Shown one piece after another: positions 39,421-44,700 of a DNA stretch of 64,000 bases (its first letter is position 1; each line of letters opens with the position of its first letter). The position numbers were made by a program, and so were the translations under genes. The stretch lies in NCBI GenBank assembly GCA_035516255.1, contig DATJAL010000018.1, positions 22,992-86,991 on the forward strand. Direction: 5' to 3'. The notes under the pieces are model-generated. The model was given only the letters and a program-made list of their open reading frames with translations, was not told where the DNA came from and did no database searches. The DNA is from Chitinivibrionales bacterium (GTDB taxonomy: Bacteria > Fibrobacterota > Chitinivibrionia > Chitinivibrionales > FEN-1185).

Positions 39421-39700
39421 AGGTAGAGTTTAAAATAAATCGGGGCGTTCCCCCTTGTTGAGGCGCGTTTTATCGCGCCTCAACAAGGGGTCGGTTCTCC
39501 CTCCGGGCTCGGCCTTGTTGCCGGACCGCCCGATGCCGCTTGCGCGGCAGGGTCGACCGGCATGAGGCAAATGATACAATAAAAAGCGCGAAGCGCAACT
39601 ACCTTACCTCAGGGAACGAAGTGACAATGCGCTCCGGCGCACCACTCCGGTCGCCCCTAACGCGGCGGCGGAGTTCTGTTGCGTAAAGAAGGTACAGTTG
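39421..39700 (-). promoter_or_regulatory. structured leader-like region upstream of trpF, related to the trpE leader
   Basis: Blocks 39630-39676 and 39442-39510 align with 44641-44685 and 44483-44524 respectively. Contains a 16-bp hairpin (39453-39490) followed on the RNA by GGGGGAACGCCCCGAUUUAUUUU. Confidence 0.35.
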
Positions 39701-39801
39701 CGCCGAGCGGAGGGTTAAATGAATAACAGAAGAATTATTCCGAAATAAATGCGGTCGGGAGTTTTAAGATGATTATCGAGGATCGATTCAACCCTTATTG
39801 T

Positions 39802-40032
39802 TTATTTTTCTTTTTCCGTTAATTTCTTCGCGGCTTTTGTCGGAAACAATTTCGCGTAAATGTCTTGTTGCCACTTGACAATTTTTTGAACGCACTCGGT
39901 GCAAATGTCCGCGGAACGGGTATCGTTAATAGGTATGTGATTAAAAACGGGATTATAATTTTTGATTTGGCTGCCGCATAAGGTGCAGTTCATGTTGTTT
40001 ACTTCTGCGGACGCTGCCGATTTGTTATTCAT
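39802..40032 (-). CDS. small zinc-ribbon-like protein
   Basis: ATG 40032 overlaps the upstream stop (ATGA). Two CxxC pairs (CTLCG ... CTECV). 76 aa, basic C-terminus. Confidence 0.5.
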   Translation of the reverse strand: MNNKSAASAEVNNMNCTLCGSQIKNYNPVFNHIPINDTRSADICTECVQKIVKWQQDIYAKLFPTKAAKKLTEKEK

Positions 40033-40799
40033 TTCAGAACCCCTTCCCTCAGCAACCTCATCAACCCCTCCTTCCACACCGGCCAGTCATGACCGCCCTC
40101 CAATTCGACCACATGTCCTTTTGGCAGCGCCTGCTCGAGAATGCGGATCCCTGGCGCAAGCTTGTCTTTAACGCCGTATGCGACATAAATCCGCGGACAT
40201 CCTGGACCGCCGCCTGCGCACCCTTTGAGCCATTGCCACAGGGGCCGTTCCCAATCCTTTTCGTCCACCTTGGCGGGCATTGACCACGCGCTGAGACCGC
40301 CTGCCTTCGTGATCTCCTGTATCGGCCCTTTCGATGTGGTATAAGGCCCCATTAAAATTATGCCTTCGATCACGCCCGGATGTTTCCATGCGTAAAGCTG
40401 CGAGCCCAGCCCGCCCATCGAATTTCCCAGAAACCAGATGCGGCGGTAGCCCTTGGCATTCGCGGGATCGATGATGTCTTTGGTGACACGCTCGTGGAGC
40501 GTGCGGTCGGCATAATAACCATAATGCACGTCGGCGGAGACAACGTCAAATGACGGCGCATAGGCCTTTATCGAATCGATAATGCCGTTGCCCTGCAGCA
40601 CCGTGATCGAGTCGCCGAAACCGGGAAGATAGACCAGGAGGCCGTCCTTGTGGGGTGCCCGTTCGTAGGTGATGGTGCGCAAGGGGATGACGGTGCGGGG
40701 GAGGCACAATAAAAATAAAGGTACGCAGAGAAAGGCAACAATCGGATGGATTAATGTGCTTGTTTTGATTGACATACGGCATTTGCCTTTTGTTTGCAT
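40029..40799 (-). CDS. alpha/beta-hydrolase (esterase/lipase-like), probably exported or membrane-anchored
   Basis: N-terminal hydrophobic segment. LVYLPGFGDS, nucleophile elbow GNSMGG, C-terminal GGHDW. Confidence 0.8.
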   Translation of the reverse strand: MQTKGKCRMSIKTSTLIHPIVAFLCVPLFLLCLPRTVIPLRTITYERAPHKDGLLVYLPGFGDSITVLQGNGIIDSIKAYAPSFDVVSADVHYGYYADRTLHERVTKDIIDPANAKGYRRIWFLGNSMGGLGSQLYAWKHPGVIEGIILMGPYTTSKGPIQEITKAGGLSAWSMPAKVDEKDWERPLWQWLKGCAGGGPGCPRIYVAYGVKDKLAPGIRILEQALPKGHVVELEGGHDWPVWKEGLMRLLREGVLK

Positions 40800-41259
40800 T
40801 TTGACAAATGTTATGGCGTTATGAGTTGTGCTAATTACTTTTCGCCGGGTTCTATAATGTCATGAAAAAATATAAATCTCCTACCTGACAATTCCAACTC
40901 CACACATGCCATTATATTCGTTCACATTTTCCGAGTTGCTTATAAGAATATATCGCTGCGAAGCGGCATACCACTGAGGATGCGTTACGAAGGGGCGACG
41001 CCTCGCGAGCTTTAATGCGAGCGAACTGGCGCGCCCCTTTGCAGGAAAGGGTGTGCTCCCGGATCATCCCGCGCCGGGCTATGCAACGTATTGATTGACT
41101 CTGCAGGCGCATGCGGCGCGGGCCAGGGGTAACCGCGAAGTGGTGTCCACGCCAGATACGAGCCCAATTGTTTTTTGGGGAGGCACGGTGCCGTGACCGG
41201 TAGGCGCCATGATTATTTAGCCAGTTATGAGACAGGCTGAACTTCTCCCCCGACTATTT

Positions 41260-42756: not shown

Positions 42757-42810
42757 GGATGTTTATTCTCTCGTTTTTTTTTCATGACTTTAAAGATGAC
42801 CTATAAACAT

Positions 42811-42888
42811 TGTCATTCCCGCGGAAGCGGGAATCCATGGATGGTAATTTATTGGAGAAGAAGGACTCCCGCTTTCGCGGGAGTGACA
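42811..42888. mobile_element. MITE-like element, ~78 bp, with 26-nt hairpin-forming terminal inverted repeats
   Basis: tgtcattcccgcggaagcgggaatcc (42811-42836) and ggactcccgctttcgcgggagtgaca (42863-42888) are inverted copies. A related pair occurs at 61933-62065. Confidence 0.5.
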
Positions 42889-42988
42889 ATATCCCGTTTC
42901 CTGATTTTTTTAGAGTATCCATGAAATTGAATAAAATCTTTTTTCATAGTTAAATCAGCGTCATCATTGTAATCAGCGAAATCAGGGG

Positions 42989-44464
42989 TCAGTCCCTTCC
43001 CACGATCTGACGGGCATCGTTGATGGCGGTGAGCAGCGCGCGCGCCTTGTTCATGGTCTCGTCGTATTCGGTGGAAGGCACGCTGTCGGCCACGATGCCC
43101 GCGCCGGCCTGGATGAAGGCGGTGCCGGCCTTGCACACCACGGTGCGTATCACGATGCAGGTGTCGAGGCTGCCGGAAAAGTCGATGTAGCCCAACGCGC
43201 CGCCGTAGATGCCGCGCCGCACCGGTTCCATTTCGTCAATGATCTCCATGGCCCGGATCTTGGGCGCGCCCGACAGCGTGCCCGCGGGAAAGCAGGCGAA
43301 CAGCGCGTCGAGCGCGTCGGTGCCGGCCTTCATCGTTCCCGACACGTTGGACACCAGGTGCATCACGTGCGAATATTTCTCGATGTGCATCATCTCTTCC
43401 ACCTTTACGCTGCCGTATTCGCACACGCGGCCGATGTCGTTTCTGCCAAGATCAACGAGCATGATGTGCTCGGCCACCTCCTTGGCGTCGTTTTTAAGCT
43501 CCGCGCTCAGGCGCTCGTCTTCAAGGTCGTCTTTGCCGCGCGGACGCGAGCCGGCGATCGGGCGCGTTTCGACAATGCCGTTTTCCACGCGCACCATCAT
43601 CTCGGGTGAAGAGCCGACCACTTGCGCGCCGTTCAGTGACAGGAAGTACATGTAGGGCGATGGGTTCACGGTGCGCAGGATGCGGTAGATGTCGAAGGGG
43701 TTGGCGTCCACGCGCACGCTGATGCGCTGCGACGGCACCACCTGGAACACGTCGCCGGCGCGGATGTACTCCTTGCACTTCTCCACCGCGGCCTCGTACT
43801 GCTGCCGGGTGAACGTTGACGAGGACTCCTTCACGTCGTTGATGGCGATGCCCGACGACGCGAGCCGCACCGCGAGCTTGTCCTCGAGGCTGCCGAGCGC
43901 ATGGCACGCGTCCTTGTACGCCTTGTCAAGCGCCACGCCGTTTCCGGTGTGGATGGTGGTGACGAGCAGCAGCTTGTGTTCCCGGTTGTCAAACGCGATG
44001 ATGTCGCGGTAAAACCCGAAAAAGATCTCGTCGAGAATGGTTTCCCTGGGGTTTTTGTCCGGGATTTTTTCAAACAGGCGCACCGAGTCGTAGGAAAAAT
44101 ATCCGACCGCGCCGCCGCACAGCCTTGGCAGGCCTTCCACGTGCACGGCCCTGAATTGTTTGAGCAGGGACCGCAGCTTTCCAATGGGGTCGCCCTCGCC
44201 CGATTCCTTCACCTCGCCCGAAACTTCCCAGGCGGCGGCATTGCTTCTGAAGGTCATGAACGGTTTTCCGCCGATGAACGAATAACGCGCCACCTTGTCG
44301 CCGCCGGTCACGCTCTCGAGCAGAAAGCTGTACGGCTCGTCCTTGAAAAGCTTGAGCCACACGGACACGGGCGTCTCGGTGTCCGCGAGGATTCTTTTAC
44401 AGACAGGAATGACGTTGCCGCGCGCGGCGAGTTTTTTTACTTCTTCTAATGATGGTACAATCAT
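42989..44464 (-). CDS. trpE: anthranilate synthase component I
   Basis: 491 aa. LLESV..GG, GAVGYFSYD, PSPYMYF, GTLSGAPKIRAMEII, RGIYGGALGY and QAGAGIVADS motifs. Confidence 0.9.
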   Translation of the reverse strand: MIVPSLEEVKKLAARGNVIPVCKRILADTETPVSVWLKLFKDEPYSFLLESVTGGDKVARYSFIGGKPFMTFRSNAAAWEVSGEVKESGEGDPIGKLRSLLKQFRAVHVEGLPRLCGGAVGYFSYDSVRLFEKIPDKNPRETILDEIFFGFYRDIIAFDNREHKLLLVTTIHTGNGVALDKAYKDACHALGSLEDKLAVRLASSGIAINDVKESSSTFTRQQYEAAVEKCKEYIRAGDVFQVVPSQRISVRVDANPFDIYRILRTVNPSPYMYFLSLNGAQVVGSSPEMMVRVENGIVETRPIAGSRPRGKDDLEDERLSAELKNDAKEVAEHIMLVDLGRNDIGRVCEYGSVKVEEMMHIEKYSHVMHLVSNVSGTMKAGTDALDALFACFPAGTLSGAPKIRAMEIIDEMEPVRRGIYGGALGYIDFSGSLDTCIVIRTVVCKAGTAFIQAGAGIVADSVPSTEYDETMNKARALLTAINDARQIVGRD

Positions 44465-44700
44465 AGTTATTTAATATTCGTATGGGTGTTCCCCCGTTTC
44501 GCGGGGTCGGCCGTCCTTCCGGTCCACCCCTTCGGGTGCTTCTCCCTCGTCAGGGATTTCCAAGGGTCACAAGGGTCGTCGTCTTTCGGCTCGGGCTGCC
44601 ACGGCCCCTCTATGCCTATCGGCGAGGGCCGGGCAGCGCCGCGCTCCAGCGCACCCTCCGGTCTACCGAACGCGGCGGCGAAGTTCCATTGTGCAAATTA
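44465..44700 (-). promoter_or_regulatory. structured leader-like region upstream of trpE, related to the trpF leader
   Basis: See 39421-39700. The conserved 3' block starts 18 nt upstream of the trpE ATG (21 nt upstream for trpF). Confidence 0.35.

What the first reader, a model, noticed from the sequence alone, without database searches (positions are those of the whole stretch)
39421..44700. Two related structured leader-like regions placed 18-21 nt upstream of the trpE and trpF start codons: candidate cis-regulatory RNA
SEEN (plus-strand text; the genes are on the minus strand):
- 39630-39676 cgctccggcgcaccactccggtcgcccctaacgcggcggcggagttc aligns with 44641-44685 cgctccagcgcaccctccggtctaccgaacgcggcggcgaagttc. 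Only a few substitutions and one 1-nt indel separate them.
- 39442-39510 ggggcgttccccc[32-nt insert]ggggtcggttctccctccgggctc aligns with 44483-44524 gggtgttccccc[gtttcgc]ggggtcggccgtccttccggtcc.
In the RNA sense the promoter-proximal block contains a conserved hairpin GCGC-(U/C)GGA-GCGC. The start-proximal block is a CCCC...GGGG hairpin whose stem length varies (5 bp against 16 bp) while its flanks (CCGACCCC / GGGGGAAC(A/G)CCC) are conserved. The central parts differ.
INFERENCE: conserved ends, a variable middle and fixed spacing to two start codons of the same pathway suggest a shared regulatory RNA (riboswitch-like or protein-binding). The G-run could pair alternatively with either the upstream or the downstream C-run. 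A simple dispersed repeat is the alternative explanation.
Basis: partly seen in the sequence, partly recalled or inferred. Interest (0 to 1): 0.6.

Follow-up and report, generated by a model that had tools for sequence, protein, structure and literature searches.

The report
Dispersed structured repeat, not trp riboswitch
The two look-alike structured regions in front of trpE and trpF are real, but they are copies of a scattered, hairpin-rich intergenic element that also sits at non-tryptophan sites and in either orientation in related genomes, so a tryptophan-sensing switch is unlikely.

Summary
Both minus-strand leaders (trpE 44481-44720, trpF 39440-39712) share the two blocks at the stated spacing.

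They belong to a family of at least 10 homologous elements, 120-220 nt long, in one clade of uncultured Chitinivibrionales (Fibrobacterota). The common core is a 5-bp closing helix GCGUU/AACGC, purine-rich junctions and hairpins P2a, P3 and P4. Extra modules are inserted at hairpin tips and junctions. Covariation supports the fold, and no Rfam family matches.

The family is not tied to tryptophan:
- One copy lies after trpF.
- One lies before rtcB.
- Two are convergent with the neighbouring gene, so they have no downstream gene.
- One spacer holds two copies head-to-head.
- The closest relatives (84-86% TrpE identity) have no copy before trpE or trpF.
- Genomes with 95-97% identical TrpE have entirely different valS-trpE spacers.
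- Internal modules also occur alone and inverted.

Most likely this is a new, lineage-specific mosaic intergenic repeat (BOX/NIME-like) that ended up in two trp 5' UTRs. Duplication or gene conversion within the genome explains the extra similarity between the two window copies.

I could not exclude a new functional RNA class.

The parts
44481..44673 (-). Element copy W_trpE: core from P1 5' strand (GCGUU) to P1 3' strand (AACAC) plus tail; ends 19 nt before the trpE ATG
   Evidence: 3'-domain covariance model R1 hit, E 1.4e-9
44674..44720 (-). 5' extension shared only with the window's other copy (UCGGCG..UGU..UUUGCACAAUGGAACUUCGCCGCC); absent from copies in other genomes
44669..44673 (-). 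W_trpE P1 5' strand GCGUU; pairs with AACAC at 44486-44490 (one C.A mismatch)
44653..44668 (-). W_trpE conserved junction CGGUAGACCGGAGGGU
44641..44652 (-). W_trpE hairpin P2a GCGC-UGGA-GCGC
44595..44637 (-). W_trpE hairpin P3 (GCUGCC...GGCAGC, apical GCC-GAUA-GGC, AUAG bulge)
44523..44577 (-). Inserted internal module. The same 59 nt (92% identical) lie alone and in the opposite orientation downstream of trpF in relative L002
44507..44522 (-). W_trpE mini-hairpin CC-GGAA-GG and junction ACGGCCGA
44492..44506 (-). W_trpE hairpin P4 CCCCG-CGAAA-CGGGG
39440..39663 (-). Element copy W_trpF: core from GCGUU to AACGC plus tail; ends 21 nt before the trpF ATG. It is 74% identical over 183 nt to copy L091A, which lies at an unrelated locus
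   Evidence: R1 hit, E 1.2e-11
39664..39712 (-). 5' extension shared only with W_trpE
39629..39640 (-). W_trpF hairpin P2a GCGC-CGGA-GCGC, enclosed by CGGAGUG/CACUUCG (39617-39649)
39566..39627 (-). Internal module of the W_trpF/L091A subtype, containing GCGC-UUCG-CGC followed by UUUUUAUU. The same module occurs alone in L206 at 235..169
39520..39561 (-). W_trpF hairpin P3 (apical CCGC-GCAA-GCGG)
39491..39507 (-). W_trpF mini-hairpin CCC-GGA-GGG and junction AGAACCGA
39451..39490 (-). W_trpF hairpin P4: perfect 17-bp stem, 6-nt loop
   Evidence: (I3)
39445..39449 (-). W_trpF P1 3' strand AACGC; pairs with GCGUU at 39659-39663
42989..44464 (-). trpE (context)
38803..39420 (-). trpF (context)

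Best explanation
The two regions are two copies of a lineage-specific, multi-hairpin intergenic element.

Shown: its core is about 150 nt. It consists of a closing helix GCGUU/AACGC, the conserved junctions AGGnnnGACYGGAG(N)GGU and GGAGRRGRRCCGRCC, hairpins P2a, P3 and P4, and the tail CCCAA. Extra modules are inserted at hairpin tips and junctions.

Shown: the family is scattered sporadically through genomes of one Chitinivibrionales clade. Its positions change between close relatives, and it occurs in both orientations.

Inferred: in this genome, insertion or recombination placed one copy in the valS-trpE spacer and another before trpF. The trp operon here also carries several other repeat and gene insertions. 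The 5' 75-110 nt of the two copies were then homogenised by duplication or gene conversion within the genome, which is why they look so alike.

Inferred: both copies are carried in the trpE and trpF 5' UTRs, because there is no room for a promoter between the element and the start codons.

Inferred: they do not sense tryptophan. Any effect on the trp genes would be generic, such as a stable 5' structure affecting mRNA stability or processing, or insulation from upstream transcription.
For: Ten full copies were found by regex, nhmmer, BLAST and a covariance model in about 0.58 Mb of Fibrobacterota DNA.

Contexts:
- Before trpE and co-oriented with it: window, L002, L003, L206f.
- Same spacer, inverted and pointing at the valS 3' end: L206r.
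- Before trpF: window, L009.
- After trpF and upstream of the next gene's conserved TTGAAC-N17-CATATATTTT promoter: L091B.
- Between two unrelated genes, antisense to both, at a site that is empty in the window: L091A.
- Between clpB and rtcB, and absent from the same site in L211: L210.

Absence and turnover:
- There is no copy before trpE or trpF in the closest relatives L091, L081, L209 and L205, or in the 71-74% TrpF relatives.
- L001 keeps only the 3' remnant GGGGAACGCCCAAA.
- L001 and L206 have 97% identical TrpE, and L003 and L004 have 95%, yet their valS-trpE spacers are completely different.

Mosaicism:
- The window's trpE copy carries a 59-nt module that lies alone and inverted after trpF in L002.
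- The central module of the trpF copy lies alone in L206.
- Other repeat families flank the copies.

Other insertions absent from relatives fill the window's trp operon (against 22, 29).

No Rfam family matches any copy.
Against: - The element has no long terminal inverted repeats and no target-site duplication, so no transposition mechanism can be named.
- No cognate transposase was found next to any copy.
- Copy density in the DNA sampled is low. About 120 kb away from trp operons had none.
- Six of 10 copies sit directly before trpE or trpF, and the four trpE copies are of different subtypes. That could mean selection rather than chance.
- Junction sequences are almost invariant even in L009, whose TrpE is only 66% identical. 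Helices show compensatory changes and GNRA-type loops. This looks more like a functional RNA than like decaying selfish DNA.
- All loci were fetched around trpE, trpF or citrate synthase, so the sampling is biased.
Confidence: 0.55

Rival explanations
1. A new class of functional structured RNA: a riboswitch-like sensor of a general signal, a protein-binding RNA or a small ribozyme. It would exist in several paralogous copies per genome. Most copies would act in cis on the downstream gene (trpE, trpF, rtcB). The orphan copies would act as small RNAs or drive antisense transcripts into the convergent gene.
For: - On an unfitted MAFFT alignment, 79.5% of cells are paired against 34-48% when partners are slid. 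Eleven pairs change on both sides against 4-6, and 0 of 500 shuffles reach the observed values.
- P1 shows a double compensatory change, UU/AA to CC/GG, in L206f.
- RNAalifold finds P1, P2a and P4 on its own.
- Junctions are conserved across lineages with 66% TrpE identity.
- Loops are of GNRA type, and the sense strand is the more stable one in 7 of 10 copies.
- Seven of 10 copies have a co-oriented start codon 20-60 nt downstream.
- Copies within one genome are as diverged as copies between genomes, as with riboswitch paralogues.
Against: - Positions are not conserved between genomes with 84-97% identical TrpE.
- Two of 10 copies have no downstream gene.
- L091B lies upstream of the next gene's promoter.
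- No expression platform is visible: no hairpin plus U-run on the sense strand and no Shine-Dalgarno sequence to sequester.
- Whole modules come and go, and occur alone or inverted.
- The downstream genes share no function.
Confidence: 0.25
2. One reading: a shared cis-regulatory leader specific to tryptophan biosynthesis. It would sense tryptophan, anthranilate, tRNA-Trp or a Trp-activated protein, and switch by re-pairing of the G-run.
For: - In the 64-kb window the only two copies lie exactly before trpE and trpF, 19 and 21 nt from the start codons.
- Copies also lie before trpE in three relatives and before trpF in the distant L009.
- The G-run after P4 could in principle pair with the following CCC.
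Against: - Copies lie at non-trp loci and in reverse orientation.
- The element is absent from the trp leaders of the closest relatives.
- It is being deleted in L001.
- There is no T-box or Trp_leader match even at E<=10.
- No leader peptide has tandem Trp codons, and there is no TRAP-type triplet array.
- No terminator follows the element.
- P4 forms in all 10 copies, with up to 17 bp. A 3-bp alternative could not compete with it.
Confidence: 0.07
3. The element acts as DNA. It would be a recombination site or invertible segment at which gene cassettes and spacers are exchanged, and the hairpins would be read by a recombinase on folded single strands.
For: - Copies sit at the borders of variable or inserted DNA. 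These are the hydrolase insert next to W_trpF, the non-syntenic island next to L091A, and the L210 site where L211 carries an extra gene.
- Both orientations occur in the same spacer.
- The three P1 mismatches would be G.U pairs on the other strand, so the strand of action is ambiguous.
- A Y1/HUH transposase-like gene exists in a related genome.
Against: - The inverted ends are only 5 bp long.
- The order of the GTT and AAC motifs is opposite to that of integron attC sites.
- The two subterminal hairpins are unlike each other, and P4 varies freely, which is not what a protein-recognised hairpin does.
- No recombinase gene is adjacent to any copy.
Confidence: 0.08

Closest known systems
BOX elements of Streptococcus pneumoniae (boxA-boxB(n)-boxC); comparison from my own knowledge of the literature
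   Same: Both are intergenic and modular, with conserved end modules and a variable or optional middle. Both are predicted to fold into stable RNA structures, are often co-transcribed with neighbouring genes, and show presence/absence differences between strains. Neither encodes a transposase.
   Different: There is no sequence relationship. BOX elements number about 100 or more per genome, whereas only about 10 copies were seen here in about 0.6 Mb. The BOX A and C modules pair extensively with each other, whereas here the ends pair over only 5 bp and the conserved parts are mostly junctions.
Neisseria intergenic mosaic elements (NIME) and Correia elements, and enterobacterial ERIC/REP-BIME repeats; from my own knowledge
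   Same: Both are mosaics of repeat modules in intergenic spacers. Modules are found in different combinations and orientations and sit next to other repeat families. Positions turn over quickly between close relatives.
   Different: Correia, ERIC and REP elements are essentially long imperfect palindromes with clear inverted ends, and Correia elements have a TA duplication. This element is a branched multi-hairpin with a short closing helix and no duplication.
Known tryptophan-operon leaders: T-box (RF00230), Trp leader-peptide attenuator (RF00513), TRAP binding array
   Same: It lies in the 5' UTR of trpE and trpF and is a GC-rich structured leader.
   Different: No covariance-model match. 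No Trp-codon leader peptide and no (G/U)AG array. No terminator or anti-terminator pair. The element is not conserved in orthologous leaders.
Orphan riboswitch candidates and multi-copy structured ncRNA motifs found by comparative genomics
   Same: Closing helix, conserved junction nucleotides, peripheral stems of variable length, compensatory changes, and position mostly upstream of genes.
   Different: There is no consistent downstream gene class. Some copies are orphan or inverted. Positions are not conserved among close relatives. Whole internal modules are exchanged.

Membership tests
T-box riboswitch | Match to the Rfam T-box covariance model (Stem I, specifier loop, T-box sequence) | tested here: not met
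   No hit at the gathering score over the whole window. No hit at E<=10 on either leader or on compact copies.
T-box riboswitch | Terminator (hairpin plus U-run) or start-site sequestering helix competing with an antiterminator | tested here: not met
   No terminator-like site on the minus strand in or after either leader.
Trp leader-peptide attenuator | Short leader ORF with tandem Trp codons, conserved between leaders | tested here: not met
   The trpE leader has a 7-aa ATG ORF with no Trp and a 35-aa ATG ORF with one Trp. The trpF leader's only ATG ORF has no Trp. The ORFs are not shared between the leaders.
TRAP-regulated leader | Array of 9-11 (G/U)AG triplets spaced by 2-3 nt | tested here: not met
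   No run of 6 or more such triplets in either leader.
Riboswitch (any class) | Secondary structure supported by covariation | tested here: met
   79.5% of cells paired against 34-48% in slid controls; 11 pairs changed on both sides; 0 of 500 shuffles reach the observed values. P1 has a double compensatory change.
Riboswitch (any class) | Conserved position in orthologous leaders and a coherent set of regulated genes | tested here: not met
   Absent before trpE or trpF in L091, L081, L209, L205 and L212-L215. Present before rtcB, after trpF, and as orphan or inverted copies.
Riboswitch (any class) | Ligand-dependent conformational change | not testable with these tools
   Needs in-line probing or reporter assays.
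MITE (miniature inverted-repeat transposable element) | Terminal inverted repeats of about 10 bp or more | tested here: not met
   Only GCGTT...AACGC (5 bp) is inverted at the ends.
MITE (miniature inverted-repeat transposable element) | Target-site duplication flanking each copy | tested here: not met
   No direct repeat abuts the boundaries in any of the 10 copies. There are only T-rich flanks in some.
MITE (miniature inverted-repeat transposable element) | Several copies per genome, with filled and empty sites between relatives | tested here: met
   Two copies each in the window, L091 and L206. The L091A site is empty in the window, and the L210 site differs in L211.
REP/REPIN with RAYT transposase | 20-40-nt palindromes, singly or as inverted doublets, with a Y1 (HUH) RAYT gene | tested here: not met
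   The element is a 120-220-nt branched structure. A Y1/HUH-like gene exists in relative L202, but it is not adjacent to any copy.
Mosaic intergenic repeats (BOX/NIME type) | Modular build: conserved end modules, with internal modules that are optional, exchangeable and found alone | tested here: met
   Core plus four insertion points. Modules lie alone or inverted in L002 and L206.
Mosaic intergenic repeats (BOX/NIME type) | High copy number across the genome | not testable with these tools
Sampled density is about 10 copies per 0.58 Mb, and the sampling is biased.
Integron attC site | 5'-RYYYAAC ... GTTRRRY-3' core sites in that order, near an integron integrase | tested here: not met
   The order here is GCGTTAGG... 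at the 5' end and ...GGAACGC at the 3' end on either strand. No integrase was seen in the Pfam annotation of the window.

The most novel reading that the evidence does not exclude
The element is a previously undescribed class of structured RNA. It would be a P1-closed, multi-stem domain of about 150 nt with near-invariant purine-rich junctions, carrying a specific biochemical activity such as binding a ligand or protein, or self-cleavage. It would spread as a portable 5'-UTR or small-RNA module, and in this genome it would have been recruited to control trpE and trpF.
Probability: 0.2. Interest if true: 0.65.

Novelty: new member of a known kind. Interest (0 to 1): 0.33.

Why it matters
If the main reading holds, the finding is a caution for motif hunting. 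Two similar structured leaders before genes of one pathway can arise from a scattered repeat plus local gene conversion, without any pathway-specific regulation.

It also documents a new repeat family in an uncultured peat and sediment lineage whose genomes show very fast turnover of intergenic spacers.

If the minority reading holds, it would add a new portable structured RNA with unusually conserved junctions. That could be tested directly by probing a 125-150-nt natural copy such as L002, L206r or L210.

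Tried and rejected
- Rfam, at gathering and at permissive thresholds, on the window, both leaders, six relatives' loci and two compact copies gave nothing meaningful: only microRNA-type hairpin noise.
- Leader-peptide, TRAP-array and tRNA-like readings were rejected.
- An alternative closing helix GGGGCG/CGCCCC forms in only 3 of 10 copies and shows no compensatory change, so I dropped it in favour of GCGUU/AACGC.
- A viral-contig scan with a degenerate 5'-block pattern gave 35 hits. None has the 3' block, so they are chance matches.
- The sigma-70 promoter and terminator scans of both leaders were uninformative.
- The strand test by folding energy and G.U counts was weak: the sense strand was better in 7 of 10 copies.
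A 47-position 3'-domain model was used instead. It recovered L003, which was not in its seed, and found no new copies. A weak L081 hit lies in coding-looking sequence and was discarded.
- Looking for trpD, trpB and trpA of this lineage failed. They are not in the window or in any related locus held.
- Literature searches found nothing relevant.
- Integron attC, dif/Xer, cobalamin B12-box and group II intron domain V resemblances were considered from memory. I rejected them on motif order or on the lack of an Rfam match.

Full report
**What is in the window**

All the relevant genes are on the minus strand:
- valS, 47414..44754
- trpE, 44464..42989
- trpG, 42756..42184
- trpC, 42039..41260
- an alpha/beta hydrolase, 40799..40029
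- a 91-aa ORF, 40077..39802
- trpF, 39420..38803
- a 1267-aa ORF with no Pfam match

The window contains no trpD, trpB or trpA and no tRNA gene. The closest TrpE sequences come from uncultured Fibrobacterota/Chitinivibrionales genomes at 82-86% identity.

**Check of the observation**

- The promoter-proximal block is 81% identical over 59 nt.
- Its 18-mer core occurs nowhere else in the window.
- The GCGC-YGGA-GCGC hairpin and the CCCC...GGGG hairpin (5 bp and 17 bp) fold as described.
- The second block ends 19 nt before the trpE start codon and 21 nt before the trpF start codon.

**Not a known RNA**

No Rfam family reaches its threshold anywhere in the window or in six related loci that carry copies. 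Permissive scans of both leaders and of two compact copies return only hairpin noise. There is no leader peptide with tandem Trp codons and no TRAP-type triplet array. No terminator-like site lies on the sense strand.

**Relatives**

I fetched loci in three ways:
- trpE-anchored loci from genomes and metagenomes
- the surroundings of citrate synthase homologues
- the surroundings of TrpF homologues

This gave about 0.58 Mb of Fibrobacterota DNA. I searched it with regex, an nhmmer profile of the 5' block, BLAST with every copy, and a covariance model of the 3' domain. Together these found ten full copies and nothing more.

Where the ten copies lie:

| Copy | Position and orientation |
|---|---|
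| window, L002, L003, L206f | valS-trpE spacer, co-oriented with trpE |
| L206r | same spacer, inverted; head-to-head with L206f and pointing at the 3' end of valS |
| window, L009 | directly before trpF |
| L091B | after trpF, upstream of the next gene's promoter |
| L091A | between two unrelated genes, antisense to both |
| L210 | between clpB and rtcB, about 55 nt before rtcB |

- L091B lies upstream of the conserved promoter TTGAAC-N17-CATATATTTT of the next gene, so it is not that gene's leader.
- The site of L091A is empty in the window.
- The L210 copy is absent from the same place in the related L211.

**Turnover**

The closest relatives carry no copy before trpE or trpF. This holds for L091 (86% TrpE identity), L081, L209 and L205, and for more distant genomes. 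L001 retains only the last 14 nt of the element. L001 and L206 have 97% identical TrpE, and L003 and L004 have 95%, yet their valS-trpE spacers are unrelated.

The window's trpF copy is most similar (74% over 183 nt) to L091A, which lies at an unrelated locus. The window's trpE copy shares its P3 hairpin with L091B.

Internal modules also move on their own:
- 59 nt from the middle of the trpE copy lie alone and inverted after trpF in L002.
- The central module of the trpF copy lies alone in L206, next to yet another repeat.

The window's trp operon carries further insertions that relatives lack (against 22, 29):
- a 233-nt spacer between trpE and trpG that contains hairpins
- a 115-nt palindrome between trpG and trpC
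- the hydrolase gene and the small ORF

**Structure**

A multiple alignment shows one homologous core of about 150 nt with four places where insertions occur. From 5' to 3', the core consists of:
- P1, GCGUU/AACGC
- the junction AGGnnnGACYGGAG(N)GGU
- hairpin P2a, with a YRRA loop
- hairpin P3, with a GNRA-type apical loop
- CCGAG
- a mini-hairpin, CC-GNRA-GG
- the junction RRCCGRCC
- hairpin P4, with 3 to 17 bp
- GG, then the P1 3' strand, then CCCAA

Evidence for the fold:
- P1 is perfect in 7 of 10 copies and shows a double compensatory change, UU/AA to CC/GG, in L206f.
- P2a switches between GCGC/GCGC and GUGC/GCAC.
- The base of P3 switches between GCUGCC/GGCAGC and GCCGCC/GGCGGC.
- On the unfitted MAFFT alignment, 79.5% of cells pair, against 34-48% when partners are slid. 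Eleven pairs change on both sides, against 4-6. No shuffle out of 500 reaches these values.
- RNAalifold finds P1, P2a and P4 independently.

The strand of action is not settled. The sense strand folds better in 7 of 10 copies and carries the GNRA-type loops. The three single P1 mismatches, however, would be G.U pairs on the opposite strand.

**Interpretation**

The combination of features fits a mosaic dispersed intergenic element of the BOX/NIME kind better than a pathway-specific leader:
- sporadic presence
- changing positions
- both orientations
- orphan copies
- exchangeable modules
- the company of other repeat families

The extra likeness of the window's two copies extends about 50 nt upstream of the family's 5' boundary, into sequence seen in no other genome. 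Duplication or gene conversion within the genome explains this best.

The element is not a classical MITE, because its inverted ends span only 5 bp and it has no target duplication. I did not identify a mobilising enzyme.

Three features keep a functional-RNA reading alive at roughly one chance in four:
- near-invariant junctions, even in a lineage with 66% TrpE identity
- compensatory changes in the helices
- the excess of copies directly before trpE and trpF

A tryptophan-specific switch is unlikely (about 0.07).

**Limits**

Every locus was fetched around trpE, trpF or citrate synthase. I therefore could not measure genome-wide copy number or inspect the leaders of trpD, trpB and trpA.

Noticed in passing
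window 42059-42173: A 115-nt near-perfect palindrome (33-nt arms, 91% complementary) fills the trpG-trpC spacer. Relatives have only 2-5 nt there. It looks like a REPIN- or MITE-type insertion.
   Followed up: partly
window 42757-42988: The trpE-trpG spacer is 233 nt (about 10 nt in relatives). It carries two small hairpins of the ATTCCC-N8-GGGAAT / CUCCCGCGAAAGCGGGAG type.
   Followed up: no
window 39802-41259: An alpha/beta hydrolase gene (40029-40799) and a Cys-rich 91-aa ORF (39802-40077) are inserted between trpC and trpF. In all relatives examined, trpC and trpF abut or overlap.
   Followed up: partly
window 51760-51850; also L091 9880-9940 and 13460-13560, L001 about 6060-6100, L210 7080-7160, L206 9740-9960: A second dispersed GC-rich repeat family (CCUCUCCCC..GGGAGAGGGG..GGGUGAGG). 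It lies just upstream of the element in L091B and L210.
   Followed up: partly
L001 about 6800-6870 and L206 about 75-140 (minus strand): A third repeat module (CGUCUACUCCUGUAGUGUUGUAUGC.GUUGUAGUCGUGGUGCU.CGGGGUCUUUCAAU) is shared between unrelated spacers.
   Followed up: no
window about 38759-38787 (minus strand): A sigma-70-like promoter, TTGAAC-N17-CATATATTTT, lies before the 1267-aa Pfam-less gene that follows trpF. It is conserved in seven relatives.
   Followed up: partly
window 34890-38693 (minus strand): A 1267-aa ORF with no Pfam domain is conserved directly downstream of trpF across the whole clade (1236-1277 aa in relatives).
   Followed up: no
L202 16732-17373: A Y1/HUH transposase-like (RAYT-like) gene with the motif MPNHFHGII lies in the genome of relative L002. 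A GTAGAGACGCACGGCCGTGCGTCTCTAC palindrome sits inside it.
   Followed up: partly
window 53447-58340 (minus strand): Four tandem paralogous genes encode F5/8 type C (discoidin) domain proteins.
   Followed up: no
L003 2800-2880 and L091 13735-13770: Perfect AT-rich palindromes are inserted at the tip of hairpin P3 in two copies of the element.
   Followed up: no
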